This document shows, piece by piece, positions 4,355 to 54,512 of a DNA stretch of 64,000 nucleotides. Both the position numbers and the translations under genes were made by a program. The stretch comes from a virus (Duplodnaviria > Caudoviricetes), in the IMG/VR virus record IMGVR_UViG_3300032007_001727. The stretch is one strand, 5' to 3'. The notes under the pieces were generated by a model. That model did no database searches and was not told the DNA's origin. It saw only the letters and a list, made by a program, of their open reading frames with translations. How positions within the stretch are numbered: the first letter of the stretch is position 1; the number at the start of each line of letters is the position of its first letter.

Positions 4355-4427
4355 CGCCCAATCGTCTATTGGTAAGACACCATATTATATTAATTTGGGA
4401 AATGAGGTTCGAATCCTCAGAGGGCAC
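4355..4427 (+). tRNA. Degenerate tRNA-like gene with no valid anticodon loop
   Basis: GCCC...GGGC acceptor, D arm GTCT-ATTGGTA-AGAC, T arm TGAGG-TTCGAAT-CCTCA. Anticodon arm is the AT-rich CCATATTATATTAATTTGG. Confidence 0.65.
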
Positions 4428-4452
4428 AAAGATAGTTTAATAAGCATTCACA

Positions 4453-5427
4453 ATGAATCAAGAGAGACCATCAATTACGGATATTTTCAGCGCAATGACA
4501 GCCAATCAGACAATGGCGGTTGCAAAGGAAGAAAAAAATCCAACCAAACTTTGGAAAGAGTTTTGGATTGAGAATGAGGTGTGTTGTCTCTTTGCTGATG
4601 CCAATGTTGGCAAGAGTATTCTTGCCGTACAAATAGGAAACTACATATCCGAAAACATATTAAAGGATAATGAAACGGTATTGTATTATGATTTTGAATT
4701 AAGCAAGAAACAATTCGAATTAAGATACACTGACAAAGAGTCAAAAAAGCCGTTTAATTTCAGTGACCGATTCATAAGAGTTGAACTTGACAGTGATGTG
4801 GTTAGGGATTATTGCGAATACAGCAAGAAACCGTTTGATGAGGTTATTATCCAAGCCATTGAGGCAAATATATCCAAGTATAACTCAAGAGTCCTTATTG
4901 TGGACAATCTAAGTTGGCTTGTAAATATGAAGGATACTGCCACAACTGCCGGAAAGTTAATGAAGAACTTGTGCAATATCAAAAAGAAATATAATGTAAG
5001 CATATTGGTTCTTTCACACACACCAAAACGTAATCTTGGCTCACCGCTCACGCAAAATAGTTTAAGTGGCAGCAAGAAACTGACAAATTTCTTTGATGCA
5101 ATGTTTGCCGTCGGTATGAGTATTAAGGATTCTTCCCTAAGGTATCTTAAGCAAATCAAGGTCCGGACCGGGGAATTCAAATATGGAGAAGACCACGTCG
5201 CAATGTGCAAGATAGAAAAGGATGGCCCGTTCCTAGGGTTCAAGATGCTTGGCTTCTCAACGGAGAAGGAAGAACTAAAGGCACCCTCCGGCAAGAATAA
5301 ACCAAGTGTCAAGTCGAAAAGAAACACAACTAAAAAGAAACGTGGTAAGAGGTTCAAGAGTGAACTGACGAATTTCCAAATTGACATGGTTGAAAAAATG
5401 GTTGAAGATGCCTTTTCAAGCCTTTAA
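4453..5427 (+). CDS. AAA_25/RecA-superfamily P-loop ATPase
   Basis: Walker A LFADANVGKS, YDFELS, Walker B LIVDN, VLSHTPK. Confidence 0.8.
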   Translation: MNQERPSITDIFSAMTANQTMAVAKEEKNPTKLWKEFWIENEVCCLFADANVGKSILAVQIGNYISENILKDNETVLYYDFELSKKQFELRYTDKESKKPFNFSDRFIRVELDSDVVRDYCEYSKKPFDEVIIQAIEANISKYNSRVLIVDNLSWLVNMKDTATTAGKLMKNLCNIKKKYNVSILVLSHTPKRNLGSPLTQNSLSGSKKLTNFFDAMFAVGMSIKDSSLRYLKQIKVRTGEFKYGEDHVAMCKIEKDGPFLGFKMLGFSTEKEELKAPSGKNKPSVKSKRNTTKKKRGKRFKSELTNFQIDMVEKMVEDAFSSL

Positions 5428-5556
5428 CATTTATTAACATTCAAAGTCTTGCGGAATTCAAAAATTTTATATATCTTTGCAACGTAAACAAAAACCCGCA
5501 ACCTAGTTGCGATGAATTAACTAACTATTTTATAAACCTTTAAAACTTTTAAAACA

Positions 5557-5901
5557 ATGGGAAAGTTTTTACAGATGATGAGTCAGAATGACTCGAAGGC
5601 TCTTGTAGCACGTGCGTCACAAATCAACACTCAAGCAAAGATTGCTCAAGAGGAAGTTATCCACAAACTCAAGATTGAGAAGACCAACGTGGAAATGAAG
5701 ATTCAAGGTCTCACTGACTTTGCTCCCGACACCACCGATTCTCTCCGTCCCGGCGTAAAGGGTTGGAACCCCAACACATGGGCCGCTGACTTGCAAGAGG
5801 CCAAGACTCGTCTCTATGAGATTGGTATTGAGTTGAAGATTGCTCAGTCCACCTTTGACGAGTTCTTCGGCGGCGATGACGATGCAGCCGGTGAGGACTA
5901 A
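5557..5901 (+). CDS. Hypothetical coiled-coil protein
   Basis: Own promoter (near-copy of 4057-4112) and a hairpin terminator at about 5920-5955. Confidence 0.75.
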   Translation: MGKFLQMMSQNDSKALVARASQINTQAKIAQEEVIHKLKIEKTNVEMKIQGLTDFAPDTTDSLRPGVKGWNPNTWAADLQEAKTRLYEIGIELKIAQSTFDEFFGGDDDAAGED

Positions 5902-5988
5902 TCGTTCCCTCTGTGTGACAAGAATGGTGGTCACTATTGTGCCACCATTCTTTTTAAAGAAACTATTAATTATTTAAACAAAAAAGTT

Positions 5989-6552
5989 ATGTGGAATTAC
6001 GTAAGACTTCGTTCTAATCAAAGCCCAATGGCTAGCATTTTGTCTGATTGCACCAACAAGGCAAACTTGCAACTAGTAATCTACCATTTGAGTGAGAACC
6101 ACGTCGAGTGTGCAACGGTTCGTTCTGAGTCTGAGGCAAGAGCCTTTAACTTGGATAACAATACCGCTAGTCAAATCTCCCGTGATGCCGTTCATGGTCC
6201 GCATGCAATACTCGCATACGACATGGCAAATTCAACAGTCTATCTCATTGACAGTGTCAAGGACTTGGTGGTTGCTTCTGCTGTTCTCCTCTGTGTGGTG
6301 ACAGAATTGTTAGGTGCACAAGTTAGCGTTGGCCGTGGTGTCCGTGAGGAACGTATGGGTGAGGTTGAGCCTAACACTCCAAACCAACGACCTAACCGTG
6401 AGGTAGCAATGCGAGACTCTAGGGGCCGTTTTGTTCCTAGGAGAAATGAGGATGCTTGTTGCAACGACGAGCCTTGGAAGAATCCGCCAACGCCATCAGC
6501 ACTTGAGTGTGGTGGTCTGTTGAACCGTCGATTCAGACTAGGCAAGCATTAA
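5989..6552 (+). CDS. Hypothetical protein
   Basis: 187-aa ORF with an A-rich leader and a hairpin after the stop. Confidence 0.7.
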   Translation: MWNYVRLRSNQSPMASILSDCTNKANLQLVIYHLSENHVECATVRSESEARAFNLDNNTASQISRDAVHGPHAILAYDMANSTVYLIDSVKDLVVASAVLLCVVTELLGAQVSVGRGVREERMGEVEPNTPNQRPNREVAMRDSRGRFVPRRNEDACCNDEPWKNPPTPSALECGGLLNRRFRLGKH

Positions 6553-6935
6553 TCCGATTTAACATTGACCCACCACTTTGGAGAATGTGTGGTGGGTCTT
6601 TGTATTGAACCCATTAAGGTTTAAAATATCTGTTGAATTATTGATTTAGGTCAAAATAATGCTCATTTTTCGTATTTAACCCTTCTTAAAGATAGAAATT
6701 TGAATCCAAATTAATATATATTATTGGTGCAAATTAAAAATAAGGGGAAACCCAACTTAAAAAAGGGAAAAATGATGAAGAAGATTGCAAATTTTTTTAC
6801 TGCTTGGATAAATAGCAGTTCTATGACTCCTACCGGAGTAATTCCAATGATTAGATAATCAGAAATTATCTTTTCATTTTTTGAAAGAAAATTCTTAAAA
6901 ACCAAATAAATTAAAAAAATTAAATTTAAAAGAAG

Positions 6936-7109
6936 ATGAAAAAGATTTTATTTTTTGTAATGGCCTTAGTTGCCATGGTTGTTACTTCTTGCAATTGCAA
7001 GACAAGTAAGTGCGAGACTCTAGCAGACGAGGATAGTGTTGAAGTAGTCAATGACACCGTTGTTCTTGACACGGCTGTTGTTGTTACTGACACTCTCGCT
7101 GTTGAGTAG
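6936..7109 (+). CDS. Small lipoprotein (57 aa, absent from the ORF track)
   Basis: MKKILFFVMALVAMVVTSC signal peptide II, followed by an acidic tail with DSV, DTV, DTA and DTL. Confidence 0.75.
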   Translation: MKKILFFVMALVAMVVTSCNCKTSKCETLADEDSVEVVNDTVVLDTAVVVTDTLAVE

Positions 7110-7260
7110 TCTTCAAAACGAAGAAAATAACAATTAAATAGCACCAAGTGGTATACGTCAAGTTTCCACTTGGTGTTTTTTTTTTGGTTTAAAAAGAATG
7201 ATAAACTTGTTTTTTTCATATTTTTTATATATCTTTGCACCAAAGTAAAAAATAAAAATC

Positions 7261-7794
7261 ATGAACAAATTTAAGATTATTGCTTGTGTTAACAAGAAAA
7301 ACGTCATTGGTAAGAATGGTAAACTAATCTATACCATTGGTAATGACTTGGCAAACTTTGCTAGTATGACAAAGTTTAACGGCGTATTGGTTATGGGGAG
7401 AAAGACGTTCGAAAGCCTCCCGAATGGTGAGCCGCTTAAGGATAGGGTCAATATCATACTGACCGGTAATGAGGATTACGGGGTTGACCCCAAATATGAT
7501 AACGTATATATCGCCCATTCCGTTGGTGATGTTGTCGAATTATGCGAAGCATTTTTCTATGACAAGGAATTGTTTGTAGTAGGCGGTCAGTCCATATACA
7601 GCCAATTTATGGATTTGGGCCTCGTGGATGAAATGCGACTGACAATCGTTAACGATGAAGAGGACGGTGATGTCACGTTTCCGGAATTTGATGAAAACGA
7701 ATGGTACACATATTATAAGTCAATGGCCCAAACTAGTTCATTTGAAGGTGTTGAGCGTTCATTCTATTTCAAGATTTTAAAGCGTAAATTCTAG
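7261..7794 (+). CDS. folA: Dihydrofolate reductase
   Basis: IIAC...VIGKNGKL, VMGRKTFESLP, PLKDRVNIILT, VVGGQSIY, GDVTFPEF. Confidence 0.93.
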   Translation: MNKFKIIACVNKKNVIGKNGKLIYTIGNDLANFASMTKFNGVLVMGRKTFESLPNGEPLKDRVNIILTGNEDYGVDPKYDNVYIAHSVGDVVELCEAFFYDKELFVVGGQSIYSQFMDLGLVDEMRLTIVNDEEDGDVTFPEFDENEWYTYYKSMAQTSSFEGVERSFYFKILKRKF

Positions 7795-7805
7795 ATAGCC
7801 ATCAA

Positions 7806-8051
7806 ATGTCGAAAAAAAAGAATGACCATTCCATAGATATTAGAGATATATGTTATTTCGTTGACCATGTACATGACATAGATTTCAGAGTATCCTTAAT
7901 AAAGGACTTGGGTTATTCAATAGGTGTAAATGTGGCAACGGAAAACTCTAAATTAAAAGAAGTTACGATTGGTAAGAGAAACGAAATAAGGATACAGATA
8001 ACCCCAAGAACGAAACATTCTAAATTAGTAAAGTGTGCCATTATCCGTTAA
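7806..8051 (+). CDS. Hypothetical protein
   Basis: ORF in operon with DHFR. Confidence 0.6.
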   Translation: MSKKKNDHSIDIRDICYFVDHVHDIDFRVSLIKDLGYSIGVNVATENSKLKEVTIGKRNEIRIQITPRTKHSKLVKCAIIR

Positions 8052-8134
8052 AAAAGGTTAATGGTTGACTGATAACTTGTTTTTGTGAAATAAATTATAT
8101 ATCTTTGCACAAAAAAACTTTAAAACATTAAATA

Positions 8135-9520
8135 ATGACTGATTCACAGACCCTACATGAGAACGGCAGCAATGTTGCCGATGTCGAGAAAAATGAAAAT
8201 GCCGTCAACACATCCAATGGTGTTGAGAAAAACGGTGAGACAAATGGTGATGGTAAGACCACTGAGGAAACAAGCAGTGCTCAAAGTGACCCGGAACCCT
8301 CTACTGCTGTGGAAAGTAAGAGTGTCGTAAATAATGACCCTAGGGATGACGATATGGGCTTGAAATTCCTTAATAAGGATTTCGTATATGAATGTATGTC
8401 GGTTCCGTCTCACAGTAAGAAAGAGTTTAGAATGGTAATATTCATAATTCTTTGGGCTAGACGCAACCACATCAAGTATGAATTCGATGAGTACGGAAAC
8501 GTATATCTCACAAAGGGTGTGCTCAGTGAAGGCGAATTCTATCCATGTGTCACTTCTCACATGGACACGGTACAAGACCGACAAGACCCATACATATATG
8601 CCGGTGTGCCCCTTGACCTAAAGACGGAACTAACGGCAGATAATAGACACAAGATAAGTGTGGACTCCCACGGCGGAGCATCAATTGGAATAGGTGCTGA
8701 CGATAAGGGCGGTATCTGTATATGTTTATCAATGTTTAAGCATATTGATAAATTGAAGGCTTGTTTCTTCCTTGATGAGGAAAGCGGGTGCAACGGCTCA
8801 AATAATCTATCCACAGAATGGTTCAAGGATGTCGGTTATGTTATCGGATATGATTCTCCGGACTTGCATAGGGCCGCTTGGTCTTGCAGTGGGGTGAAGT
8901 TATTCAGTTATGAGTTCTATACCGAGCACATGAAGGAAGTGTGTGACAAGTGGGGTCTAGTCAAAGGATGCTTCTTCTCAGAGCCATACACAGATGTTAA
9001 GAATATCCGTGAAAAAACCGATATTATATGTATGAATTTTGGTAATGGCGGATACAATGCACACATGCCGGGTGAATACAGTATAATTGAAGATATGGAC
9101 CATGCTTGCGGAATGGGTGTGGAACTTATACAGTCAATTGGGTGCACGGAGCATAAATTGAAGCACCTTGGCTCTAATAAATCCGCCATACAATACAGAC
9201 GGACCGAAAATGGGACCTACGAGCCTATCACAAACGATGATACATCGTTGCTCAGAAGTTTGGGTGATGACACTAGGTACGGCGGTAAGGGTTCAACTAC
9301 GACGAGTTCGGCCACTACCTATCGCACGGTCACCAAGAAGGAAGATGAACTTAAGTTTGACAGTGTCAAGTACATCGTAAACCGTTACGACTCCCATATT
9401 CTTGCTATTAAGGAAGAATTGATTAGGGACATCAAGAAACACTGTAAGAAACTTAAGGTTGATTTCAGTGAGATTGAAAAGATTATAGAGGAAAAATTTA
9501 ACAACGAAATTAAATTCTAA
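8135..9520 (+). CDS. M28/M20-clan zinc peptidase-like protein
   Basis: Metal-ligand motifs SHMDTV, GADDKGG, DEESG and C-terminal GYNAH. Confidence 0.8.
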   Translation: MTDSQTLHENGSNVADVEKNENAVNTSNGVEKNGETNGDGKTTEETSSAQSDPEPSTAVESKSVVNNDPRDDDMGLKFLNKDFVYECMSVPSHSKKEFRMVIFIILWARRNHIKYEFDEYGNVYLTKGVLSEGEFYPCVTSHMDTVQDRQDPYIYAGVPLDLKTELTADNRHKISVDSHGGASIGIGADDKGGICICLSMFKHIDKLKACFFLDEESGCNGSNNLSTEWFKDVGYVIGYDSPDLHRAAWSCSGVKLFSYEFYTEHMKEVCDKWGLVKGCFFSEPYTDVKNIREKTDIICMNFGNGGYNAHMPGEYSIIEDMDHACGMGVELIQSIGCTEHKLKHLGSNKSAIQYRRTENGTYEPITNDDTSLLRSLGDDTRYGGKGSTTTSSATTYRTVTKKEDELKFDSVKYIVNRYDSHILAIKEELIRDIKKHCKKLKVDFSEIEKIIEEKFNNEIKF

Positions 9521-9528
9521 CGTTTATT

Positions 9529-11934: not shown

Positions 11935-11947
11935 CAGTTTAAGAAAA

Positions 11948-12139
11948 ATGGAAATTTTGCTTTTTTCTATTTCGTTAATGGTTACGCTATTTTTCCTTAA
12001 CGATAAATTTAGCAAGGCTGTAAGAGTGATTGCATTCAAGGAAGATGAGACTAAACGTAGTGCCATCGTATCTTTAATTACCATGTTCGCAATGGTGTTA
12101 CTGTGGGTGATTTTTTACTACTATGTTAAGGTTTATTAA
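11948..12139 (+). CDS. Small membrane protein
   Basis: Two hydrophobic segments. Confidence 0.5.
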   Translation: MEILLFSISLMVTLFFLNDKFSKAVRVIAFKEDETKRSAIVSLITMFAMVLLWVIFYYYVKVY

Positions 12140-12205
12140 CACAAATAACTTGTCTTTACTGAAAAAAATATATATCTTTGCAAAAATCAATTAATTAATA
12201 ACACA

Positions 12206-14263: not shown

Positions 14264-14314
14264 AGAAATTGAAACTAAAAAGAAAGGTGGCCAATATCTG
14301 ACCACCTTTTATTG

Positions 14315-15479: not shown

Positions 15480-15608
15480 AATTATTATTTAAAAATTTAA
15501 ATATGGTTATTTTAACAATAAATATCACAAATATCTTGTTATTTTCATATTTTTTATATATCTTTGCAACAGTTAAAAAAAATGTTAAATTTCAAACCTA
15601 ATTAATTC

Positions 15609-16796: not shown

Positions 16797-16803
16797 GGTA
16801 ATT

Positions 16804-17571: not shown

Positions 17572-17715
17572 ACTACCCATCAACTAAAGATTTGTGGAAT
17601 TTTTTGGTGTTTTTTATTAAAAAACATTAAAATAATGTGGGATATCTTGTGTATCTCACATTTTTTTTATACTTTTGCAAAAAATGATGGTACAAACACA
17701 GAAAGAATAATCACT

Positions 17716-19107
17716 ATGCAGATATTCAAAGAAGAAAGAATTATCAAGTTAATTGAGTTCATAAAAGATGAAATTAAGGATACTGCCTTCAGAAACCATG
17801 TATTCGTGGTCGGTGGCAGCATCAGAGATTCATTATTGGGACTTAAGGTAAAGGATATTGACTTGGTGGTGGACATCCCAAACGGAGGTGTATTACTATC
17901 GACGTTCTTGACAGCCAAGAACAACTGCTATAGAACCGGAAAGAACCCCGTCATTTACAACAAATACGGTACCGCAAAGTTCCAATTTCTCAACCACAAC
18001 GAATTCAACGACATTGAAATAGAGTGTGTACAAACTAGGAAGGAACAATACCACAATGAGAGCCGGAACCCAAAAGTCGTATTCGGCGAACTTGAAGAAG
18101 ATGCCAAGAGAAGGGACTTTACGGTCAACTCAATTTACTACAACATTAGCAGTGATAGGATAGAAGACCCGAATAACGGGTTGGATGATATTCTAAATGC
18201 TGTCATCAAGACTCCGTCAAACCCAAGAATAATCTTCATGGAAGACCCGCTCAGAATTCTGAGGGCGGTGAGGTTTTCTTGTAAATTGGGTTGGGGTATT
18301 GAAAAGGATACTTGGTTGGGCATGATTGAAAATGCCCATAGGATAGATATCATATCCCAAGAAAGAATAACCGATGAGATAACCAAGATTTTGACATCAC
18401 ACAAGCCTAGTGTCGGGATAAGGAAGATGCTAGGGTGCGGATTGCTACATAGGGTATTGCCGGACATATACGACCTAATTGGCGTATCTGAGTGCGGCAA
18501 ACTGTCTCTGTTTGACCATACAATGTCTGTGTTGGATGTCGTAAACCCGTGCATAGAGCACCGTTTAGCAGCCCTTTTCCATGATGTGGGCAAAGTCGTT
18601 GTCAATGGGGTTAATTCAAAACACGTTGATGTCCCCTCTTTCAGCAGTGATATTGCCTCCCATGACTTGTTTATGATGAAATATCCGAATTCCGTAATAG
18701 ATACGGTTGAAAAGGCAATCAAGTATCACATGGCCTTTTCCAATTACGGGGAATATGAAATCCCAAGGGATAAGATACTCCGGAAATTCATTCATCTAGT
18801 AGGTGATTCGATTGCACCGACATTCGACCTTATGAATGCAAACAACGCATTCTGCGGGCGAAACAAGAAGAAGACCCAAGTCATGAACATACTGAACCGG
18901 ATGGAAGAGTTGGAAAACATAGAAAATATGCAGAATGTTAAACTTCCGGTTTCCGGAAAGGATATTATGGAGAAATTCAATCTGAAACAGTCTCCGCTGA
19001 TTGGTACCCTCTTGAATGAGATAAGAGAGGCTTATTTTGAACGTCCGGACATTACAAAGGAAGAGTGCTTTGAATTGGTAGACAAAATCTTAAATAAAGT
19101 TATCTGA
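17716..19107 (+). CDS. cca: CCA-adding tRNA nucleotidyltransferase / poly(A) polymerase family with HD domain
   Basis: VGGSIRD, KDIDL, DAKRRDFTVN, EDPLRILRAVRF, SQERI, LFHDVGK. Confidence 0.88.
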   Translation: MQIFKEERIIKLIEFIKDEIKDTAFRNHVFVVGGSIRDSLLGLKVKDIDLVVDIPNGGVLLSTFLTAKNNCYRTGKNPVIYNKYGTAKFQFLNHNEFNDIEIECVQTRKEQYHNESRNPKVVFGELEEDAKRRDFTVNSIYYNISSDRIEDPNNGLDDILNAVIKTPSNPRIIFMEDPLRILRAVRFSCKLGWGIEKDTWLGMIENAHRIDIISQERITDEITKILTSHKPSVGIRKMLGCGLLHRVLPDIYDLIGVSECGKLSLFDHTMSVLDVVNPCIEHRLAALFHDVGKVVVNGVNSKHVDVPSFSSDIASHDLFMMKYPNSVIDTVEKAIKYHMAFSNYGEYEIPRDKILRKFIHLVGDSIAPTFDLMNANNAFCGRNKKKTQVMNILNRMEELENIENMQNVKLPVSGKDIMEKFNLKQSPLIGTLLNEIREAYFERPDITKEECFELVDKILNKVI

Positions 19108-19109
19108 CA

Positions 19110-27752: not shown

Positions 27753-28268
27753 ATGGATACAAACACAAAGGAATATTCATCTTCAATATTGAAGAAGATA
27801 GACGATAGCATGTCATCGCTGATGGCACTTCTTGCACACGGAGAGAACAACACAGAGGCAAGGAGCCGTCTCGACACGTTGAAGTTAATCAAGTCTGAAT
27901 TGGTCAGAGAAAACGGCAAGTTGCACTCAAACGTGCAATACAAGATGTTGCCCCAAGAGTAACTTAAGTTGCTCTCGACCATGAAGAAATCCCATGAGGA
28001 AACCATAGAGGGCTACATGAAGGTGAACAACACCCAATCCGCAGAATCTGAGAGGGCGGAACTCTCCATCATCATGGAATACCTCCCCAAGATGCCTTCC
28101 AAGGAGGAAACGGAATCATTCATAAGGGAGATAATCTCCCTACACCTTGCAGAGAACGGCACAATATCCATAAAGGACATGGGAAGGATTCTCCCCAAGG
28201 TCAAGGAGAAGTACCCCTTGGTTGACGGAAAACTAGTCAAGGACATTATCTTGTCTCACCAACAGTAG
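27753..28268 (+). pseudogene. GatB/YqeY-domain protein interrupted by one in-frame TAA (27960-27962)
   Basis: The two ORFs share a frame (..PQE*LKLL..). YqeY motifs LKLIKSEL, AELSIIMEYLPK, KDMGRI, VDGKLV. Confidence 0.75.
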
Positions 28269-34894: not shown

Positions 34895-34897
34895 ACG

Positions 34898-43939: not shown

Positions 43940-44051
43940 TTTTATTTTATATCAATCATATTTCCGATTTTCTATTTTTTGGTGAGTACCATCCGTGAGG
44001 AGCGGAAAGCCATTTTATTAACAAGAGTTTTAAATTTAAAATTAAATCAAT

Positions 44052-44525
44052 ATGAAAAAAATAGTTTATTCATTAGTGTTGATGATGTGTGTTATGTCGG
44101 TATTTAATTGTTCGAGCAACAATAGGCCGAAAACCATCATCGGGAGTTGGGAAACCATCAGTGTCAAGGGTGAAGTGAAGGAGTTTGGCGGTGAGTTCGA
44201 GCAAGATTTCACATCACAGCAGATAAACCCCATCTATGAGGAAATGTATCGTTTCAAACTAACCTTTGACGAGAACACTTGCGTAACACTTGTTTCGTCT
44301 GTCAATGGTCAATGGAAGGAAGATTCAGTTGATGTGTACAATTATATCCTCAACAATGGTATGGTGCGCATCTTGGACGTACGCAATAAGATGTTCGGAA
44401 ATGATAATGATGTGCCGCCCTTGGACGAAACGTTTGAGTATGCAATAATAGGTGACGAATTGTTTATGACTTGCTATAACGAGGATGAATATGTCACTTA
44501 CCGGCTGAAACGCATAAAAAATTGA
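44052..44525 (+). CDS. Lipocalin-like lipoprotein
   Basis: Signal peptide with Cys, IIGSWE motif, beta-rich. Confidence 0.6.
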   Translation: MKKIVYSLVLMMCVMSVFNCSSNNRPKTIIGSWETISVKGEVKEFGGEFEQDFTSQQINPIYEEMYRFKLTFDENTCVTLVSSVNGQWKEDSVDVYNYILNNGMVRILDVRNKMFGNDNDVPPLDETFEYAIIGDELFMTCYNEDEYVTYRLKRIKN

Positions 44526-44603
44526 AAAAAGTTGTGATTTTGTTTCGGTAATTCAAAAACTTTGGGTACTTTTGCAATGTCAAAACAAAAAAACGAATAG
44601 AAA

Positions 44604-44717
44604 ATGAGTAAAAGAAGTTTCAAAAGAGCGGTTGCGGCCGCAAAGGTTACGGCCATCCCGTCAAAGAAGAAAGGCAATGGACAAGATGCCATTCAGTTGT
44701 ACAACGTGTACAAATAG
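44604..44717 (+). CDS. 37-aa basic peptide (absent from the ORF track)
   Basis: MSKRSFKRAVAAAKVTAIPSKKKG..., directly after a promoter repeat. Confidence 0.55.
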   Translation: MSKRSFKRAVAAAKVTAIPSKKKGNGQDAIQLYNVYK

Positions 44718-45154
44718 GTAGCAGCACTACCGAATTTACGCTTGTGGACTACCCAACTGCCGAAAGGCGAACCACACGAATGTGTGGGGCTATGGATGAC
44801 AGACTCGGCAATGAGGTACTAAAAAGTAGTGGTAGGTTGAAGCAAGAAGTTAATAATGGATAAACAAATTTGTTCAAGTTTTAACATGCTGTACAAGTAA
44901 CTGATTATTAACCCGTGGAATATGGGGGTGTCCTCCGGAACACGATAGGTCGAGCAAGTTCATCGGTCACCCCCATCCACACAATTCAAGCCATTATGGA
45001 ACGTCCTCCACCCAAGTAAGGAATAATTCAGATAATTTATTTTTATTATTATATGCAAATTTAAAGCCCATAACACAATGAATCCAAGAGCAAGTCCCAT
45101 AAAATAGATTTTAATTCGTCTATACATTATACATTAATTATTTATTCTCTCGCA

Positions 45155-45260
45155 GGGATAAACCCAAACGATGGGTATCACCCTTGACGCAACGAAGTCC
45201 CCGGAGAGTCCGGCTGACATGAACGTCATTGGCGATTGCGGTTCGTTCCGCATTATCCCA
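45155..45260 (+). ncRNA. tRNA-like RNA whose anticodon loop is replaced by a multi-hairpin domain
   Basis: Acceptor GGGATAA/TTATCCC plus A; hairpin ACCCA/TGGGT; T-like arm TGCGG-TTCGTT-CCGCA; internal CCGGA/TCCGG and TGAC/GTCA. Confidence 0.6.
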
Positions 45261-45423
45261 CAATAAAAAAACTGTTTTTCGTAATTTGAGTTGTTTAGGT
45301 TAATTGTAACAGATGTGTTGTGATAACACGTCTGTTATTTTTTGAAAATAATTCTGTTTTTATTTCGTCAATTCAAATTATTTGGGTACTTTTGCATTGT
45401 CAAACAATTAAATAATATAAGTT

Positions 45424-48400: not shown

Positions 48401-51400
48401 GGGGACATCTGCCTTGACACAGAGGATGATGATGCCTATGCCATTGAGAACATCAACCTTGAAGAACTCTATGACATCGCGGAGTATGTGTATGCAGACG
48501 TGGAAGAAACAATAAACCAATAATTTAGAAGAACGTTAAATTGAGGTGGGGATTTTATCTTCACCTCTTTTTTTATTTTTAATTGAAAATAATTACATTT
48601 CTATTTCGTCAATTCAAAACTTTTGGGTACTTTTGCAATATCAAACAATTTAAAACAATAAATATTATGACCTATTCACTTATAATTGAACAATATTGCG
48701 CTGATGCCAAGTATGTCAATGACATAAAGACTTGGAAGGAAGTAACCGATTTCTTGAAGAATCAGTTATCACAACTAACAACTTGTGTTCACATCTTCAA
48801 GTTTTCAAGCAACAGCAAGACCCTCGGCTCGAAGGTTGTGACAATGGGCAACCTCTTTGATGTGTGCAATTCTCTTACGGACAAGATATTGTTATAAATC
48901 AAAAACAAAATAAGACTATGGCACATTATAAAGAAGAAGTTAGATTTTCTACAAAGTTCAAGAGATTCAATGTTTTCACAACAAGTGGGGAAAACGTAGT
49001 AGTGAAAAGTGACAAGCCAATGACATTGGATGAGGCAATGTATGAGTATAAGGCACTTGCCATTGGCGGAATAGATTAAATAAACTAAAAACAAAATAAG
49101 ATTATGAGAAGATTAGCGATTATTGACCATGACACCCATACATTGTATGTGGACGATGTGGATGAGAAGGAGTTAGAGGAATATTATGATGGTGATGAAC
49201 AAGCCTACATCGAGGATAATTATGCCCTTCTTAATAATTACTCATGGGATTGGGTTACAGATGGCATCTATTACAAGAAGATGTACGAAACTGGAATCGA
49301 CATCGATTTTGACAAGTTAATAGAAGAATAAACAATTATTAAATAAAAAGTAAACAAATGAACAAAGAATTATTAACGGTCGAGTTTCGTTATCACGTCA
49401 TTCCAAAATCAGAATATGATTCCGACTTTGAGTCAAAAGAAGTTACGATTGGAGTGTATGAAACGCTCGATGAGGCTATAAAAGAAGGAAACAATGTCCT
49501 TAAAAAATTATCTTCAAGATTTAAGTTTCGTGAATCATTTGGCACTCATAATGGCGTGTTTGGTTCTCCCACACGACTTGTTTGTGACTGCTTCAATGGC
49601 TATCCGCAAGTGTTCTGCAAAATAACGCAACTAAAATATGACAATATAAATAATGTTGCGAACGTGGCTTTTGACAATGAGGAAAAATATCGTAAATGGT
49701 GTGTATAAGTTAAAAACAAAATTATGATTGCAAGAATTACATTCCGAAGCGAAGTTTACGTTGAAGGCGATAATATCGAAGATATTGCAAGGAAATGGGA
49801 AGGTATGGAACTTTACTCCGCTGAAGCAAACAAGGGAATGGTATCACTATCCCCGGCCGAGTTTGTTGAACTTGACAAAGTAGAAGATGAAAATTATAAC
49901 GACATCACAGATGAATTTAAGAGAAAATAAGTGGTGGGGGAGAAATCCTCCACCTTTTTATTTAAAATAATTTGATTTTTATTTCGTCATTTCAAAACTT
50001 TTGGGTACTTTTGCAATGTCAAACAAATAAAAACAATAAGATTATGGAAGAAATAATTAAACTTCAAGAAGAAATTGACAAGAAGCAATGTAAGGTTAGA
50101 AAAGGCTGTATTGAATACCTTAAAAGAGCCACCGAAAAAGTTGGTGGAACAATCTGCATGGATGATGAGGAAGACGTAGTTATGGTAGCCTATGATGGTG
50201 GACGTCACCCGGAATATGACAGCAATTTGTATTCAGCGGTAGAAAGCGTTTTTCTCAAAGATGGTAAACTCTACCTTAGCATAGAGGACTGCGATGAGTA
50301 TGAGATTGACCGCGTAAGTAGCGATGAAGTCTATGCCGTTGCCTTGTTCGTTTACGGCATGCTTAACGAAAATGCCTAATAGAAATACTTTTGCAATGTC
50401 AAACAAATAAAGATTATGAAAACAAAAAATGATTCAAGGACAAAGAGAAGGGTTGTCGAAACCTACAAGGGATTTGACATCATAAAGGTAATTGTTGAGT
50501 ATTTTCATAAATCCTTCTACGGCTATGAGTATGATGATGATTGGGTAGATAGAAGGACTGTTTACTTTGACTTCTGCAAGGAAGGAGAGGGCAAGAAGTC
50601 AAGCCAAGCATATTCGGTATATGCAAAGAACATTTCAGATTGCAAGGAATGTATTGACAAGTTCATCGAGGATGATTCCTTGTACTTCACAGATGAGGAA
50701 GTAAGGAAGTATGTAACAAAGCCGAACCATGATTGCGGTTGGGCTTATGGGTACGACTCATTGATGAAACTCATGAAGCAGCACCAAAAGGCTGATAAGC
50801 GAATGAAACGGCTTATTGAGGATAGGCTATCCGATGCTAACTTTCATTCCGAGGCTGGTTTCCTCTCGCAAGAAGATTATGTAGGTTTCACTGATTTGGT
50901 AAGAAAAACCTACAAGTTCTGTGAGAAGTTTGAAATCTATACTGAAACAATGGGAAAGAGGATTGACAATCCCAAAGGGCTTGAAGAAGGCTTGAAGATG
51001 GTTATCAATGACTTTCTTAAAAAACGAGGCATAGAAGATACGGACGTTAAGGTCAATTTTGTGGAAAATTGGTGAGTGGAGCAATCCACCACCATTTTTT
51101 TTTTTGAAAATAATTCTATTTTTATTTCGTCAATTCAAAAAGTTTTGGTACTTTTACATTGTCAAACAAATAAAAACAAATAAAGATTATGAAAAGAACA
51201 ACTAACATTAGGATTGAATCATTCGACCTATCACGAGAGCAGCATGATATGGCGGTTGAAATGGTCGTGAATGACAAGCGCAAGGTAGCCTCTTACACCT
51301 TGGAAGAGGTGGATGGCGAAATGGCTAATGTATGGATTTCCGAAGCCCATTCCGAGGGCAATACAGATTATGCGGAGTTCCTTCGCAAAGCCATTGCTGA

Positions 51401-53234
51401 GAACGCAGAACTTTACACCCTCACAGACCATTTAGGTGGGTTTGCACAGCCTATCGGTGAGGTGGCAGCATTTCAGAAGCAGTATTTCACAATTGATATT
51501 TAATGGCATATGTTTACTCTATTCACATTACTTTTAATCATTTATTGGTTATCCATATCGATAATTGAAGACGGTTTTGAATACACTTGCAAGGAGTATC
51601 TTAAAGGGTTAATTATGATGCTATTGTTTGCTATGGCCGTTGATGGGTTCTTCATAGTAATATCACATCTGTTATAATCATGGAAAAGAAAGCATTTTAT
51701 AATAAGTTGTCCGGCACTCGCTATGAGATAGTGGATAGCGCATGGATAGACAAAGATACATTCGTCATTGTCTTTCAAGATATGAAAGACATAGATGGTG
51801 ACACGTTCCATTTCGAGGCTGAATACCATAAGGACGAACAAAAGGTGACATTCTGCTTGGTATATGAGAATCAAGTGTTAAGCGGAGAGGACTGCATCCC
51901 AACCTCAATAAAGAGAGAGATTGAGGAATATATGCTAAAGCAATTAGATGTGGTCAAGGGGATGCTTATAAAGCATAATATTACGCTTGAATTGTCGCTT
52001 GACATTGACGAAAACTTGACAATGGATGAATTAAGGGCATATCTTAATACCTTGGACATAGATGTGAAGGGTTATGGTGACAAAGTGAATTGCATAGGAG
52101 TTAAACGAATAAATTAGGCGGATTTTATGATGATTGAAGCAAAAATAATTCTGTTTTTGTTTCGGTAATCCAAAAAGTTTGGGTACTTTTGCATTGTCAA
52201 ACAATTTAAAAACAAATAAAGATTATGGAATACAAAGACATTGCACCCGTTGTTAAACATGATTATGCAAAGCCATATAGGGTCAAGTACGCAAACGGAA
52301 AGACAGCCATTGTGCGCCTTTGGCTTGCATCTAACGGATTGGTAGCCAAGTTGGCTAAAGGGAGAAAGGTACACGGCTATGTGCTTGGTTATTACGACTA
52401 CAAGGATTGGGTGTCGTTGAAGGCAGTGGAGAAGAAGCCGACAAGCACGTTCACCCTCATGAAGAAAAGGGCAACAGATGCCTTGAAGTATCTCACACAG
52501 AGCGGAATGTGGCCTTCAATTAAGAAGGAGATAGAACATTTCCTTTCCGATGATGCCATCATACAAGCCGTAGCCGATGCCATTGACAAGGATTCATACG
52601 AGTCTTTCTACAAGGAATGCTACGAGAACGGGAAATTCCCATGGTGTCACACCACACAAGTGTTCGAATCCTTTGCCGCCAAAAGATGTTGGCAGTCTAT
52701 CCCATATCAAAGGTGGGAAAGGGAAAGGATGAACCAAAGAATAAGTAATGCCATTGAGGATAGGCAAGACTTCAGTTACCGTTGGACTAACGGCTATGAC
52801 AATACAATAGAGATTAGCGGTGGCGAAGAACTAAGGGGATGGCTATCATGTGAATACAGAGGCTGCGGAAACGGACATTACTACCTTCTATTTGATGCTA
52901 CCCATGCCATCTTCTACGAGGACGATTGAAAAGTAATTAAAAATAGATTAATAATAAAAAGATGAACAAAGATATTGAAAGAATAAAGGGTATTGTGCTC
53001 TCGAAAGGGAGCACAGACCCAAAAGGCGGCAGGGTGCTCAAACTAGAGGCCGGAAAGGTTACGGTACTATCGAGGGCCAAAGAAAGACTTTATCCCGTGG
53101 CCCTGCGCGTATACCAAGAAGAATTGCAAGTGGTTTTCGTTAATAAGAGAAAGAGATTCTTTTCCTATCCATTGCTATCACTGCAAAGTGATGCTCCTAA
53201 GTTATTCGAAAAGGTCATATCCGTCTTTTGTTAA
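45424..53234 (+). CDS. Run of small early genes: 45424-46206, 46222-46500, 46782-47048, 47059-47514, 47597-48019, 48158-48523, 48667-48897, 48918-49079, 49104-49331, 49358-49708, 49724-49930, 50044-50379, 50416-51075, 51189-51503, 51680-52117, 52225-52929, 52962-53234
   Basis: Promoter repeats and A-rich leaders. 48158 and 50044 are paralogues (YDGG.HPEY.SN). 47059 has a GIYCHWDG motif. Confidence 0.7.
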
Positions 53235-53392
53235 CAAATGTTAAAATGTTGGCAAATATTTTGGATTGTCAAATATTTTATATATCTTTGCAATGTCTTG
53301 AAAAGGACGATAAAACATAATTAAAGAACTCGGTTGCGGTGGACAACACGCCAAACTATAGTTAAGAGTTAGGGCATTTAAAAACCACCTTT

Positions 53393-53517
53393 TGGGAAGT
53401 ACTAGAGGAGAACCATCTTGCAATCCTGCAAGGGTGGATGTAGACAAATAGGTATCAAGTTTGTGCTTGATATGTCGCCTACGGGCGGCTTCGGCGGTGC
53501 AAATCCGTCCTTCCCAA
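53393..53517 (+). ncRNA. Expanded cloverleaf tRNA-like RNA, copy 1
   Basis: TGGGAAG/CTTCCCA acceptor, U8A9, D stem CTA/TAG, long variable arm, T arm GGCGG-TGCAAAT-CCGTC. Confidence 0.8.
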
Positions 53518-53574
53518 CAAATTTCTTGCGGTGGACAAGGACGGAATTAATCCGAAAAAAAACCACCTATCTTT

Positions 53575-53690
53575 TGGAAGATACCGGAGGAGAACTATCC
53601 GCAAGGGTAGATGTAGACAAACGGGTATCAAGTATGTGCTTGATATGTCGCTTACGAGCGGCTTCGGCGGTGCAAATCCGCCTCTTCCAA
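53575..53690 (+). ncRNA. Expanded cloverleaf tRNA-like RNA, copy 2
   Basis: TGGAAGA/TCTTCCA acceptor, D stem CCG/CGG, compensatory changes relative to copy 1. Confidence 0.8.
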
Positions 53691-53708
53691 CACTTTTGTT
53701 TGACGCGA

Positions 53709-53756
53709 TGAGGGTTCGGCTTTTCTAAATCTTTACGGCCGAACCCTCTATTTTTA
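53709..53756 (+). terminator. Intrinsic terminator
   Basis: GAGGGTTCGGC / GCCGAACCCTC stem followed by a T tract. Confidence 0.7.
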
Positions 53757-53864
53757 TTCAACCCCAATTGAAACATATATCACACCATAAAAAAGAAGTG
53801 TGTCATAAAACACACTTCTTTCGCTTTCTGACGGCCTTTAACCATTGGGGCAATACTTTCCCGG

Positions 53865-54062
53865 TCACTTAATTCCAAGCCTCTTACATAACGCTTCAAG
53901 CATTCTATCCTTGATGCTTGCCACCTTCCAATTCTTTTCGTCCTTTCCGATTAAGATGTCTTTGACAATGAAGGACTTTAATTCTTGTTTTGTTTTAAAC
54001 CCGCATTTGCGGCAGAACGAAGCACATTCCTCAATGAACTTGTTAAACTTCTCGTCATCCAT
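53865..54062 (-). CDS. Hypothetical protein
   Basis: Divergent promoter TATATTTG upstream. Confidence 0.55.
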   Translation of the reverse strand: MDDEKFNKFIEECASFCRKCGFKTKQELKSFIVKDILIGKDEKNWKVASIKDRMLEALCKRLGIK

Positions 54063-54167
54063 ACACAGAAAAATATTTTTGGTTACACAATGCAAATATA
54101 TCAAAAATATTTCGGTATTCCAAACTTTTGGGGTACTTTTGTGATGTCAAATAAAATAATAACGATT

Positions 54168-54401
54168 ATGGCAATAGATATTTCGAAACTACCATTGACT
54201 CAGTTAAGGAGTTTAAGGAATTGCTGCTATAACTTGGTTATACGCAATCTAAGACAATGTCCGGAGGGCGATGAGAAATATAGGAAGATAAGAATACTCT
54301 TGTCACAATTCTATCTTGGTATCGTTGCACAGAATGAGTTGCTTCAAGAATGTGTCGAACTCGGATGGATTAATGAAAAAAACATCACCCATTTCTTGTG
54401 A
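54168..54401 (+). CDS. Hypothetical early protein
   Basis: Follows a promoter repeat. Confidence 0.6.
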   Translation: MAIDISKLPLTQLRSLRNCCYNLVIRNLRQCPEGDEKYRKIRILLSQFYLGIVAQNELLQECVELGWINEKNITHFL

Positions 54402-54438
54402 TTAAAGAATATTTTATATATCTTTGCATTGTGACAAT

Positions 54439-54512
54439 CGGGGTGTAGCGCAGTTGGTTAGCGTGCTTGTTTTGGGAACAAGTGGTCGTGTGTTCGAGTC
54501 ACACTACCCCGA
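54439..54512 (+). tRNA. tRNA-Pro(TGG), CCA not encoded
   Basis: CGGGGTG acceptor start, anticodon arm CTTGT-TT TGG GA-ACAAG, T loop TTCGAGT. Confidence 0.93.

What the first reader, a model, noticed from the sequence alone, without database searches (positions are those of the whole stretch)
4355..54512. Suite of anticodon-less tRNA-like RNAs alongside a phage CCA-adding enzyme and YqeY
Seen: four tRNA-shaped RNAs without a usable anticodon (4355, 45155, 53393, 53575) and one normal tRNA-Pro. None has CCA after the predicted discriminator. The same window encodes a CCA-adding-family enzyme and a YqeY tRNA-binding-fold gene. Known: anticodon nucleases (PrrC, RloC and others) and toxins acting on tRNA ends are anti-phage effectors. 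Inference: a coordinated tRNA-mimic and tRNA-end maintenance module.
Basis: inference. Interest (0 to 1): 0.7.

Follow-up and report, generated by a model that had tools for sequence, protein, structure and literature searches.

The report
Non-decoding tRNA-Tyr mimics, jumbo phage
Two of the four reported RNAs belong to a widespread, apparently undescribed family of tRNA-Tyr-derived RNAs in giant phages that keep every feature needed to be cut and finished like a tRNA but cannot read a codon; the link to the CCA enzyme and YqeY is only that all occur in the same phage lineage.

Summary
The window is part of a jumbo phage record from IMG/VR, with Bacteroidota-type promoters. Only tRNA-Pro (54439-54512) is a normal tRNA.

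- **53393-53517 and 53575-53690: real.** They belong to a family I call TyrL, with at least 150 distinct copies in viral and metagenome contigs. None was found in 185,579 prokaryote genomes, GenBank phages or Rfam 15. On 128 distinct copies, 99.2% of pair positions are paired and 26 of 34 pairs show compensatory changes.
- **Origin.** TyrL derives from the phage group's class II tRNA-Tyr. It carries a hairpin inserted in the D loop, a closed stem where the anticodon loop should be, and T loop UGCAAAU.
- **Context in relatives.** The order tmRNA, TyrL array, GOLLD-like RNA holds in nine of nine covered loci.
- **4356.** A degenerate Glu-like tRNA (25.5 bits) with a syntenic counterpart in relatives.
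- **45155.** An orphan tRNA-shaped fold with no homologue found.
- **3' ends.** None has CCA; all have CA after the discriminator, like the phage's real tRNAs.
- **cca and yqeY.** Both are conserved in the lineage but lie tens of kb away, and yqeY here carries a nonsense codon.

Best reading (inferred, not shown): TyrL RNAs are matured tRNA-Tyr body mimics that titrate tRNA-Tyr-directed host factors, such as PtuAB nucleases. Other readers of this scan had already noted the same RNAs on this genome.

The parts
53260..53290 (+). Bacteroidota-type promoter-like motif (TTTG ... TATCTTTG) ahead of the TyrL pair
   Evidence: Read. The same promoter block recurs upstream of copies in many related contigs (blastn). 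The -33/-7 consensus is from my own knowledge. Not tested.
53338..53389 (+). Leader hairpin of copy A (GGUGG ... CCACC, then UUU before U1)
   Evidence: The conserved leader UUGYGGUGGACAA..AAAAACCACCUUU is seen in 48 distinct upstream regions. The fifth pair covaries: G-C, U-A, A-U.
53393..53517 (+). TyrL copy A: 125-nt tRNA-Tyr-derived cloverleaf, U1-A72, A73, enlarged D-loop hairpin, no anticodon loop
   Evidence: R1 104.8 bits, E 1e-25; fold; alignment A3/A5.
53530..53567 (+). Leader hairpin of copy B
   Evidence: Same motif as copy A.
53575..53690 (+). TyrL copy B: 116 nt, D-loop hairpin CUAUCC-GCAA-GGGUAG. Same acceptor (UGGAAGA) and identical D-loop hairpin as L012 5525-5638, the copy 8-11 kb downstream of the 260-aa gene homologue in G003
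   Evidence: R1 113.9 bits. Hairpin and acceptor identical to L012 5525-5638. Shared position relative to the 260-aa gene and a 145-aa gene homologue 2.5-3 kb upstream.
53710..53758 (+). Terminator-like hairpin (11-bp stem) plus U tract closing the TyrL unit
   Evidence: Read. Not called by the simple scanner because its loop is longer than 8 nt.
54439..54512 (+). Normal tRNA-Pro(UGG), no encoded CCA (A73 then CAU)
45155..45260 (+). Orphan tRNA-shaped RNA candidate: 7-bp acceptor, 5-bp D-position hairpin, about 70-nt extended arm, T-like arm with a 6-nt loop, A then CAA
   Evidence: Fold z -3.2; descriptor scan; no homologues. In G003 and G005 odd tRNAs lie upstream of the same gene and are followed by the same FopS-like element.
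45272..45345 (+). FopS-like sRNA/terminator element after the 45155 RNA
   Evidence: Rfam BTncRNA_FopS 27.9 bits, below the gathering score of 56. The same element follows tRNA-like genes in G003, G004 and G005.
4356..4426 (+). Degenerate tRNA (Glu-like D arm, canonical T arm, defective acceptor, 9-nt loop), 27 nt before the ATPase gene
   Evidence: Rfam tRNA 25.5 bits, below 29. Aligned through conserved element X and the D and T arms with G004/G005 'tRNA-Ala(cgc)', itself only 33.7 bits with a poor anticodon stem.
4232..4282 (+). Conserved element X upstream of the 4356 tRNA-like
   Evidence: blastn hits in G003, G004 and G005 in the upstream region of the ATPase-gene homologue; alignment A4 with G004 and G005.
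17635..19107 (+). CCA-adding-family tRNA nucleotidyltransferase with HD domain
   Evidence: Pfam PF01743 85 bits, PF12627, HD; NCBIfam; homologues in G001 and G003-G005.
27753..28268 (+). YqeY-domain gene interrupted by an in-frame TAA at 27960-27962
   Evidence: PF09424 65 bits read through one TAA; the C-terminal half alone scores 53.8 bits; the stop aligns with Glu of the intact G003 homologue.

Best explanation
Shown. The tandem pair at 53393-53690 are two paralogues of a conserved phage RNA family (TyrL).
- TyrL descends from the class II tRNA-Tyr of this jumbo-phage group. It keeps the 7-bp acceptor stem with invariant U1-A72 and G2-C71, U8, the 3-bp D stem, the long variable arm, a 5-bp/7-nt T arm and A73.
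- It also keeps the flanks of the phage's real tRNAs: U at -1 and C after the discriminator.
- It carries a hairpin inserted in the D loop between the invariant strands GAGGAGAAC and GAUGUAGACAAA.
- An 8-bp stem closed by a 5-6-nt loop stands where the anticodon loop should be. The T loop is UGCAAAU.

Inferred. Host RNase P and RNase Z (or exonucleases) cut the RNAs out like tRNAs, a CCA-adding enzyme (host or phage) finishes them, and they accumulate as stable L-shaped RNAs that cannot enter decoding.

Most likely mechanism (about 0.3). They act as competitive mimics of the tRNA-Tyr body. They would bind and titrate a host factor that recognises tRNA-Tyr through its body and long variable arm rather than its anticodon. 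The leading candidates are Septu/retron-type PtuAB nucleases, which cut the tRNA-Tyr variable arm.

The other two RNAs are separate matters. 4356 is a decaying or re-purposed Glu-like tRNA retained upstream of an ATPase gene. 45155 is an orphan tRNA-shaped end of a roughly 750-nt non-coding transcript. cca and yqeY are lineage-core translation-related genes, not a dedicated module.
For: Family and structure:
- 225 pattern instances, 210 of them with 7/7 acceptor pairs; 152 unique sequences passed the filter, all but two of them family members (U1 150, G2 150, A73 150, next base C 149, leader ending UU 141).
- On 128 distinct CM-aligned copies, 99.2% of cells are paired, 26 of 34 pairs change on both sides, and the covariation score is 0.628. 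Shuffles give 0.174 and slid controls at most 0.095.

Origin:
- R1's best hits outside the family are the phage tRNA-Tyr(GUA) at 43.1 bits and class II tRNA(CAU) at 32-42 bits. No tRNA-Ser or tRNA-Leu was hit in the same loci.
- Shared features are visible.

Same maturation signals as real tRNAs:
- 9 of 9 tRNAs of this record have U at -1 and CA (mostly CAA) after N73, as do both copies.
- Packed arrays have 5-nt spacers.

Distribution:
- 28 IMG/VR stretches, including complete 295-412-kb genomes with 3-5 copies each.
- More than 119 metagenome stretches.
- Only chance hits in prokaryote genomes, nothing in GenBank phages, nothing in Rfam.

Precedent for the mechanism:
- PtuAB of Septu and retron-Eco7 cut the variable arm of tRNA-Tyr.
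- Higher dosage of phage tRNA-Tyr, or a phage tRNA-Tyr with a longer variable arm, neutralises them (PMC13096335, PMC12673091, PMC11555353).
- TyrL keeps and lengthens exactly that arm (5-6 bp plus a tetraloop, against 3 bp in the phage's own tRNA-Tyr).
- Copy number varies from 1 to 5 between relatives.
Against:
- The decoy target is inferred from E. coli systems. The host is unknown, and whether it carries PtuAB was not tested.
- Arrays are old paralogues with a conserved order. Identity within arrays is 0.75, against 0.93 to the best match in another contig. This points to distinct, non-redundant roles rather than simple dosage.
- The invariant D-loop strands, the G55 T loop and the conserved leader hairpin are not explained by a plain decoy.
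- The fixed position next to tmRNA and a GOLLD-like RNA in relatives suggests a role tied to those RNAs.
- How PtuAB recognises tRNA-Tyr is unresolved (PMC12673091).
Confidence: 0.4

Rival explanations
1. TyrL RNAs work with the GOLLD-like giant RNA. They would serve as its 5' processing handle (RNase P/Z cleavage defining the GOLLD 5' end), or as a partner or cargo of the GOLLD cage. The solitary copies, as in this window, would supply the same partner in trans.
For: In nine of nine loci where the tmRNA-linked array is covered (G001, G003, G004, G005, L014, L017, L018, L021, L039), a GOLLD-like RNA (45-86 bits, E 1e-8 to 1e-21) follows the last copy. It lies on the same strand, 355-637 nt downstream. 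In the loci listed, that last copy carries the leader hairpin. GOLLD forms 14-mer cages. Its authors propose tRNAs as possible contents and note tRNAs in and beside GOLLD (10.1101/2024.12.08.627333).
Against: GOLLD hits are below Rfam's gathering score of 150. The pair in this window has its own promoter and terminator, and no GOLLD was found in the 136-kb record. That record is only 45% of the genome, and the search's control rang in none of the named genomes. GOLLD occurs widely in bacteria and prophages, yet TyrL was absent from 185,579 genomes. A processing handle does not need 2-5 diverged paralogues.
Confidence: 0.2
2. tRNA-shaped processing and stability modules ('punctuation'). The tRNA-like folds recruit RNase P/Z to cut and stabilise neighbouring RNAs or mRNAs. 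This fits 4356 (27 nt before an ATPase gene, after element X) and 45155 (at the end of a roughly 750-nt non-coding transcript) better than it fits the TyrL pair.
For: Positions are read. D and T arms and the acceptor are kept while the anticodon region differs completely between the window and G004/G005 (A4). Both have the CAA trailer.
Against: The base at -1 is C (4356) and A (45155), not the U seen in all real tRNAs and TyrL copies. The 4356 acceptor has two mismatches. 45155 has no homologue. TyrL copies in packed arrays punctuate nothing but each other.
Confidence: 0.15
3. TyrL RNAs are aminoacylated (Tyr, or Leu through A73) and used outside decoding. Alternatively they titrate TyrRS, EF-Tu or elbow-binding factors to reprogramme host translation. 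The phage YqeY (GatB-tail fold) might bind their altered D loop.
For: A73, the acceptor end and the variable arm of the phage tRNA-Tyr are retained. YqeY and cca co-occur in the lineage. That GatB recognises U1-A72 and that its YqeY-like tail binds the D loop is my recollection, untested.
Against: Bacterial TyrRS depends strongly on the anticodon (my knowledge), which is absent. yqeY is broken here. There is no linkage, and no aminoacyl-tRNA-dependent transferase was found next to the copies.
Confidence: 0.1
4. The RNAs are decaying tRNA pseudogenes, or real tRNAs with removable insertions.
For: 4356 scores 25.5 bits and has a damaged acceptor. 45155 is an orphan. Relatives carry 120-126-nt tRNAs with insertions of about 50 nt.
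Against: For TyrL this is excluded: 99.2% pairing, 26 covarying pairs and invariant single-stranded blocks across 128 distinct copies. Removing the D hairpin still leaves no anticodon loop. No splicing system for short bacterial tRNA insertions is known (my knowledge).
Confidence: 0.1

Closest known systems
tRNA-Tyr(GUA) of the same jumbo-phage group (L177 2053-2133, L178 2005-2085)
   Same: U1-A72, G2-C71, U8, D stem CCA/UGG, D loop beginning GAG and ending CAAA, G26, variable arm followed by UUC, T loop U.CAAAU, A73, trailer CAA. Best non-family hit of R1 at 43.1 bits.
   Different: TyrL has a hairpin with invariant flanks inserted in the D loop. A closed stem with a 5-6-nt loop replaces the CUGUAAA anticodon loop. 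The variable arm is longer, position 55 is G, and many copies have a conserved leader hairpin.
Phage tRNA-Tyr used against Septu/retron-Eco7 PtuAB (T6, T5/SP15; PMC13096335, PMC12673091, PMC11555353)
   Same: Phage-encoded tRNA-Tyr-type RNA, in tandem copies or at raised dosage. The long variable arm is the feature that matters.
   Different: Those are decoding tRNAs that can also replenish the pool; TyrL cannot decode. Their arrays arise by recent amplification, whereas TyrL arrays are old paralogues. No test was done here.
Class II tRNA(CAU) with T loop UGCAAAU (L179 3257-3338, L018 2779-2860, L003 1938-2020)
   Same: D loop ...GUAGUCAAA together with T loop UGCAAAU, as in TyrL (GUAGACAAA + UGCAAAU). 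R1 scores 32-42 bits.
   Different: It has a normal 7-nt anticodon loop (CAU) and no D-loop hairpin. Its own function is unknown.
tRNA-like domains of tmRNA and YrlA (bacterial Y RNA); T4 stable RNAs C and D
   Same: Non-decoding RNAs with an acceptor/T-arm mimic. Some are phage-encoded and lie in tRNA clusters.
   Different: No Rfam tmRNA or YrlA match in the window. TyrL keeps all five arms with its 5' and 3' ends in the acceptor stem. The comparison with T4 RNAs C and D rests on memory only.
GOLLD RNA (RF02032) with associated tRNAs
   Same: In relatives, TyrL arrays lie directly 5' of a GOLLD-like RNA in a tRNA/tmRNA island.
   Different: No GOLLD in this window or record. TyrL is a small tRNA-shaped RNA, not part of the GOLLD model.

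Membership tests
Canonical tRNA (Rfam RF00005) | Score at or above the gathering threshold (29 bits) or a call by ARAGORN | tested here: not met
   53393, 53575 and 45155: no tRNA hit even at E<=10. 4356: 25.5 bits. ARAGORN finds only tRNA-Pro.
Canonical tRNA (Rfam RF00005) | 7-nt anticodon loop with U33 and a readable anticodon | tested here: not met
   TyrL: 8-bp stem with a UUUGUG or UAUGUG loop (UUCGUG or GGUAA in relatives). 4356: 9-nt loop. 45155: about 70-nt arm.
Canonical tRNA (Rfam RF00005) | 7-bp acceptor stem stacked on a 5-bp T stem with a 7-nt T loop, and a single discriminator base | tested here: met
   Met for both TyrL copies. 4356 has 4 pairs plus 2 mismatches. 45155 has a 6-nt T loop.
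Canonical tRNA (Rfam RF00005) | D-loop G18G19 and T-loop U54-Psi55-C56 | tested here: not met
   In TyrL, GG is replaced by AG within GAUGUAGACAAA and position 55 is G in 138 of 152 copies (UGCAAAU).
TyrL (family defined here, model R1) | Full-length match to R1 with U1-A72, G2-C71, A73, GAGGAGAAC-hairpin-GAUGUAGACAAA, and T loop UGCAAAU | tested here: met
   Window copies score 104.8 and 113.9 bits over model positions 1-112. All motifs present.
YrlA / tmRNA tRNA-like domains | Match to RF02553 or RF00023 | tested here: not met
   No such hit in the window at the gathering threshold, or at E<=10 around the four loci.
Class II CCA-adding enzyme | PolyA_pol head domain plus RNA-binding domain | tested here: met
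   PF01743 85.1 bits, PF12627 58 bits, weak HD.
Class II CCA-adding enzyme | CCA-adding rather than A-adding or poly(A) activity | tested here: inconclusive
   Best NCBIfam hit is CCA tRNA nucleotidyltransferase (220.6 bits), below the equivalog cut-off of 438.8; PcnB models also match. Motifs were not inspected.
YqeY (PF09424) | Intact open reading frame covering the domain | tested here: not met
   Domain match of 65.2 bits only when one TAA is read through. The stop aligns with Glu in G003. Homologues in relatives are intact.
Anti-PtuAB tRNA-Tyr decoy or supplement | Neutralises Septu/retron-Eco7 and is bound or cut in the variable arm | not testable with these tools
   Literature precedent only.

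The most novel reading that the evidence does not exclude
TyrL RNAs are dedicated partners of the GOLLD-like giant RNA. A set of non-decoding, elbow-extended tRNA mimics would dock onto or be enclosed by the GOLLD cage, or use it as a platform. This would give the first clue to what phage RNA nanocages do. It would also explain the fixed order tmRNA, TyrL array, GOLLD, and the invariant D-loop strands.
Probability: 0.15. Interest if true: 0.9.

Novelty: new variant of a known kind. Interest (0 to 1): 0.62.

Why it matters
- **A well-defined new RNA family.** TyrL is absent from Rfam 15. It has over 150 distinct members, textbook covariation and a clear evolutionary origin in a phage tRNA-Tyr. 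This shows that giant phages turn tRNA genes into non-decoding RNAs and keep several diverged paralogues for long periods.
- **A testable link to tRNA-targeting immunity.** If TyrL RNAs are decoys, they would be RNA-only counter-defence factors against nucleases that attack the tRNA body, a recently recognised branch of bacterial immunity.
- **A possible handle on GOLLD.** If they work with the adjacent GOLLD-like RNA, they offer an experimental route to the unknown function of RNA nanocages.
- **A practical caution.** tRNA finders miss these genes, while permissive settings mis-call them as intron-containing tRNA-Cys or tRNA-Ile.

Tried and rejected
- **T-arm 18-mer scan of IMG/VR.** It found only an unrelated phage's class II tRNA(CAU). 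This was later useful as a comparison.
- **Scans for relatives of 45155 and 4356.** No hits.
- **Looser D-arm/T-arm pattern.** Too generic: it matched ordinary Glu-type tRNAs in over 117 unrelated contigs and says nothing about 4356.
- **Stop-codon reassignment as an explanation for the TAA in yqeY.** Rejected. TAA is the commonest stop of long ORFs (73 of 123), and the codon aligns with GAA/Glu in G003.
- **Intron-containing tRNAs.** ARAGORN's permissive calls are tRNA-Cys i(40,32) and tRNA-Ile i(35,24). They disagree between two 90%-identical copies, and no anticodon loop remains after removal.
- **Sarcin-ricin-loop mimicry.** CGA-type copies read UACGAGAGGA at positions 8-17. Rejected as the main reading, because position 11 covaries with 58 as a D-stem pair and most copies have C11.
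- **Homing endonuclease next to arrays (SegB-like amplification).** Only G001 has a clear HNH gene.
- **GOLLD in this record.** None found. The record is 45% complete and the control search rang nowhere.

Full report
**Where the window lies.** The window is bases 66596-130595 of a 135.8-kb IMG/VR virus record that CheckV rates 45% complete. That points to a jumbo phage of roughly 300 kb. Intergenic regions carry repeated TTTG...TAnnTTTG blocks, which I recognise as Bacteroidota-type promoters (own knowledge). The record has nine ARAGORN tRNAs: eight just upstream of the window, plus tRNA-Pro inside it.

**The observation.**
- ARAGORN and Rfam at gathering thresholds find only tRNA-Pro at 54439-54512.
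- With permissive thresholds, 4356-4426 is a 25.5-bit tRNA match, below the threshold of 29. It has good D and T arms, a 6-position acceptor with two mismatches, and a 9-nt loop.
- The other three loci give no tRNA match at E<=10, yet all fold into tRNA-like junctions with z-scores near -3.
- A minimal descriptor was run over the record: a 7-bp acceptor directly after a 5-bp T stem with a T[TG]C[AG] loop. It finds 12 sites, against 1.9 expected from Markov simulations. Five are real tRNAs, two are the pair, one is 45155, one is a further 126-nt tRNA-like outside the window, and three look like chance.
- None of the loci encodes CCA. All four, and tRNA-Pro, have CA after the discriminator.
- The nine real tRNAs of the record all have U at -1 and C after N73, and all but tRNA-Arg (CUU) continue with A.
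- The cca-family gene (17635-19107) and the YqeY gene (27753-28268) are real.
- YqeY has an in-frame TAA that aligns with Glu of the intact homologue in G003. TAA is the phage's main stop codon, so this is a nonsense mutation or an assembly variant.

**The tandem pair is a member of a large family.** The two copies are 90% identical. They already differ by compensatory changes in the acceptor, the D stem and the D-loop hairpin.
- A related phage, reached through its CCA enzyme (50% identity), has five copies.
- The invariant strands were used as the pattern GAGGAGAAC-N(8-30)-GATGTAGACAAA.
- In 185,579 prokaryote genomes it found only two hits. These lack the family features and are chance matches in GC-rich DNA.
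- A blastn search of GenBank phages found nothing but tRNA-Pro.
- Of 225 instances, 210 have a perfect 7-bp acceptor.
- Among the 152 unique sequences that passed the filter (all but two are family members), U1, G2 and A73 each occur in 150, the next base is C in 149, U8A9 occurs in 149, and the leader ends in UU in 141.
- RNAalifold on 43 copies gives five helices with compensatory changes in 25 of 34 pairs.
- On 150 copies aligned to model R1 (128 distinct), 99.2% of cells are paired, against 76% in shuffles and 35-43% in slid controls. Twenty-six pairs change on both sides. The covariation score is 0.628, against 0.174 and at most 0.095. This is a real structured RNA under purifying selection.

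**Anatomy.** From 5' to 3':
- a 7-bp acceptor;
- U8 A9;
- a 3-bp D stem that covaries (CCA/UGG, CGA/UCG, CUA/UAG, CCG/CGG);
- a D loop made of invariant GAGGAGAA, a 4-10-bp covarying hairpin (often with a GNRA loop), and invariant AUGUAGACAAA;
- an 8-bp stem closed by UUCGUG, or GGUAA in one subtype, in place of the anticodon stem-loop;
- a 4-6-bp variable arm with a tetraloop;
- UUC;
- a 5-bp T stem with loop UGCAAAU;
- A73.

Many copies are preceded by a conserved leader, UUGYGGUGGACAA...AAAAACCACCUUU. Its fifth pair covaries. These are the solitary copies, the first copy of an array, and the copy nearest GOLLD. Both window copies have the leader. Copies inside packed arrays are separated by only 5 nt.

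**Origin.** Outside the family, R1's best hits are the group's own tRNA-Tyr(GUA) (43.1 bits) and a class II tRNA with anticodon CAU (32-42 bits). tRNA-Ser genes in the same loci, and the tRNA-Leu genes of L003 and L021, are not hit. The phage tRNA-Tyr shares U1-A72, G2-C71, the CCA/UGG D stem, a D loop running GAG...CAAA, G26, the UUC linker, A73 and the CAA trailer.

One detail may matter. tRNA-Tyr combines D loop GUGGUCAAA with T loop UUCAAAU. The class II tRNA(CAU) and TyrL combine GUAG(U/A)CAAA with UGCAAAU. This looks like a coupled change at the 18:55 elbow contact, so I infer that the elbow is kept and the hairpin projects from the variable part of the D loop.

**Context.**
- Complete relatives (295-412 kb) have 3-5 copies each.
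- One locus corresponds to the window's pair. It lies 8-11 kb downstream of the homologue of the window's 260-aa gene, with a homologue of the window's 145-aa gene (51680-52117) 2.5-3 kb upstream. It holds one copy in G003, G004 and G005, and two here.
- The other locus is an RNA island. In nine of nine covered cases the order is tRNA-Ile, tmRNA, usually a tRNA(CAU), two to five TyrL copies, then a GOLLD-like RNA 355-637 nt further on the same strand. tRNA-Ala follows, and in several an amber-suppressor-type tRNA.
- The GOLLD matches are significant (E 1e-8 to 1e-21) but below Rfam's gathering score.
- Arrays are old. Copies within an array are 75% identical on average, while each has a 93% match in another contig, and the order of subtypes recurs.

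**The other two RNAs.**
- **4356.** In G004 and G005, the upstream region of the homologous ATPase gene (70% identity) holds a roughly 200-nt unit that aligns with window 4225-4432. It comprises conserved element X and a tRNA with the same Glu-like D arm and T arm, a fully changed acceptor and an unrelated, poorly paired anticodon region. ARAGORN calls that one tRNA-Ala(cgc) and Rfam gives it 33.7 bits. So 4356 is a retained but degenerate tRNA-like. It could be a pseudogene or a processing element.
- **45155.** No homologue was found in seven related records. It closes a roughly 750-nt stretch without convincing genes and is followed by a FopS-like element and a terminator. In G003 and G005, odd tRNAs upstream of the same gene are followed by the same FopS-like element. 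It lacks U8/N9, the D-loop signature and a 7-nt T loop. I rate it about even that it is a functional RNA.

**Mechanism.**
- Shown: TyrL keeps every determinant that RNase P, RNase Z and CCA-adding enzymes use (acceptor/T minihelix, elbow, discriminator). It shares the flanks of the phage's true tRNAs, and it has lost the anticodon loop in all copies.
- Inferred: it is matured like a tRNA and cannot decode.

For its role I favour molecular mimicry of the tRNA-Tyr body. The reason is precedent. PtuAB nucleases of Septu and retron-Eco7 cut tRNA-Tyr in the variable arm. They are neutralised by more phage tRNA-Tyr, or by a phage tRNA-Tyr with a longer variable arm (PMC13096335, PMC12673091, PMC11555353). 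TyrL keeps and lengthens that arm.

Several features are not explained by a plain decoy: the ancient, ordered paralogues, the invariant D-loop strands, the leader hairpin and the fixed neighbourhood with tmRNA and GOLLD. These keep a GOLLD-linked role alive (10.1101/2024.12.08.627333). I put identity and maturation at about 0.9, and the decoy mechanism at about 0.3.

cca and yqeY occur in G001, G003, G004 and G005. They are tens of kb from the RNAs, and these genomes also carry dozens of CCA-less tRNAs. yqeY is broken here. Co-occurrence therefore reflects a lineage-wide set of translation genes. A functional tie is possible, since the CCA enzyme would finish these RNAs too, but it is not shown.

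**Novelty.** No Rfam family, GenBank phage or paper found in six literature searches describes this RNA. A catalogue of about 10,000 IMG/VR structured-RNA candidates exists (PMC10690425) and may contain it unnamed. Other first readers of this scan noted the same loci on this genome. A follow-up on another jumbo phage reported different non-decoding tRNA-shaped RNAs beside GOLLD.

Noticed in passing
window 27960-27962: In-frame TAA splits the YqeY gene. It aligns with Glu (GAA) of the intact G003 homologue, so this is a nonsense mutation or an assembly variant.
   Followed up: yes
window 53338-53389 and 53530-53567; 48 related upstream regions: Conserved leader hairpin UUGYGGUGGACAA..AAAAACCACCUUU directly before many TyrL copies, with covariation at its fifth pair. 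Role unknown. UGGU could pair with a mature ACCA end (speculation).
   Followed up: partly
L011 1215-1690 (-), L181 2693-3114 (-), L180 4994-5427 (+), L179 4561-4991 (-), and L014, L017, L018, L021, L039: GOLLD-like RNA (45-86 bits, below Rfam's threshold of 150, E down to 4e-21) follows the TyrL array in every covered relative. Phage tmRNA lies just upstream.
   Followed up: partly
L180 5441-5566, L181 2557-2679, L011 1081-1201, L017 10358-10481, L018 3877-4000, L039 4637-4757: Conserved 120-126-nt tRNA matches (39-42 bits) right after the GOLLD-like RNA. Each carries an insertion of about 50 nt in the anticodon region.
   Followed up: partly
L179 3257-3338 (-), L018 2779-2860 (-), L003 1938-2020 (+): Class II (long variable arm) tRNAs with anticodon CAU, D loop AAGUAGUCAAA and T loop UGCAAAU. 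They occur in unrelated phages, and in G005 with a U1/U72 mismatch. Identity unknown.
   Followed up: partly
L186 (G003, upstream of the ATPase gene), L187, L188: Further odd tRNA-likes. One, GUGCGGU...ACCGCAC, has an insert of about 90 nt (G004, G005). In G003 a 'double' form has two D arms and two T arms joined by a closed acceptor-like hairpin.
   Followed up: no
G000 58103-58229 (about 8.4 kb before the window start): A 126-nt tRNA-like with a perfect acceptor and T arm, directly after tRNA-Met. ARAGORN at a low threshold calls it tRNA-Thr with a 54-nt intron.
   Followed up: no
window 45272-45345: FopS-like element (Rfam BTncRNA_FopS 27.9 bits, sub-threshold) ending in a GUGA-loop terminator. 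The same element follows tRNA-like genes in G003-G005. It hints at a Bacteroidota host.
   Followed up: partly
window 44713-44896: Repeated element, 92% identical to one beside TyrL copies in L118 and present in L119 and L138. Another reader called it omega-RNA-like.
   Followed up: no
window 3551-4042: HIT-family (histidine triad) gene (Pfam HIT 71 bits) just upstream of the 4356 unit.
   Followed up: partly
L179 7675-7782 (-): Sub-threshold YrlA (Y RNA-like) match, 36 bits, E 1e-4, in the RNA island of G005.
   Followed up: no
L179 578-654, L180 8143-8228, L181 173-264, L017 6932-7023, L018 1412-1497, L039 2301-2377: tRNAs with anticodon CUA (amber-suppressor type) in relatives, suggesting that TAG is read as sense in part of these phages.
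   Followed up: no
TyrL copies with a CGA D stem, e.g. L037 4632-4743: Positions 8-17 read UACGAGAGGA, the same ten letters as the core of the 23S sarcin-ricin loop (from memory). Position 11 covaries as a D-stem pair, so probably a coincidence.
   Followed up: partly
L011 2945-3433 (-): HNH endonuclease gene (Pfam HNH_2, 42.5 bits) between the tmRNA and the five-copy array of G001. No clear endonuclease domain at this position in the other relatives checked.
   Followed up: partly
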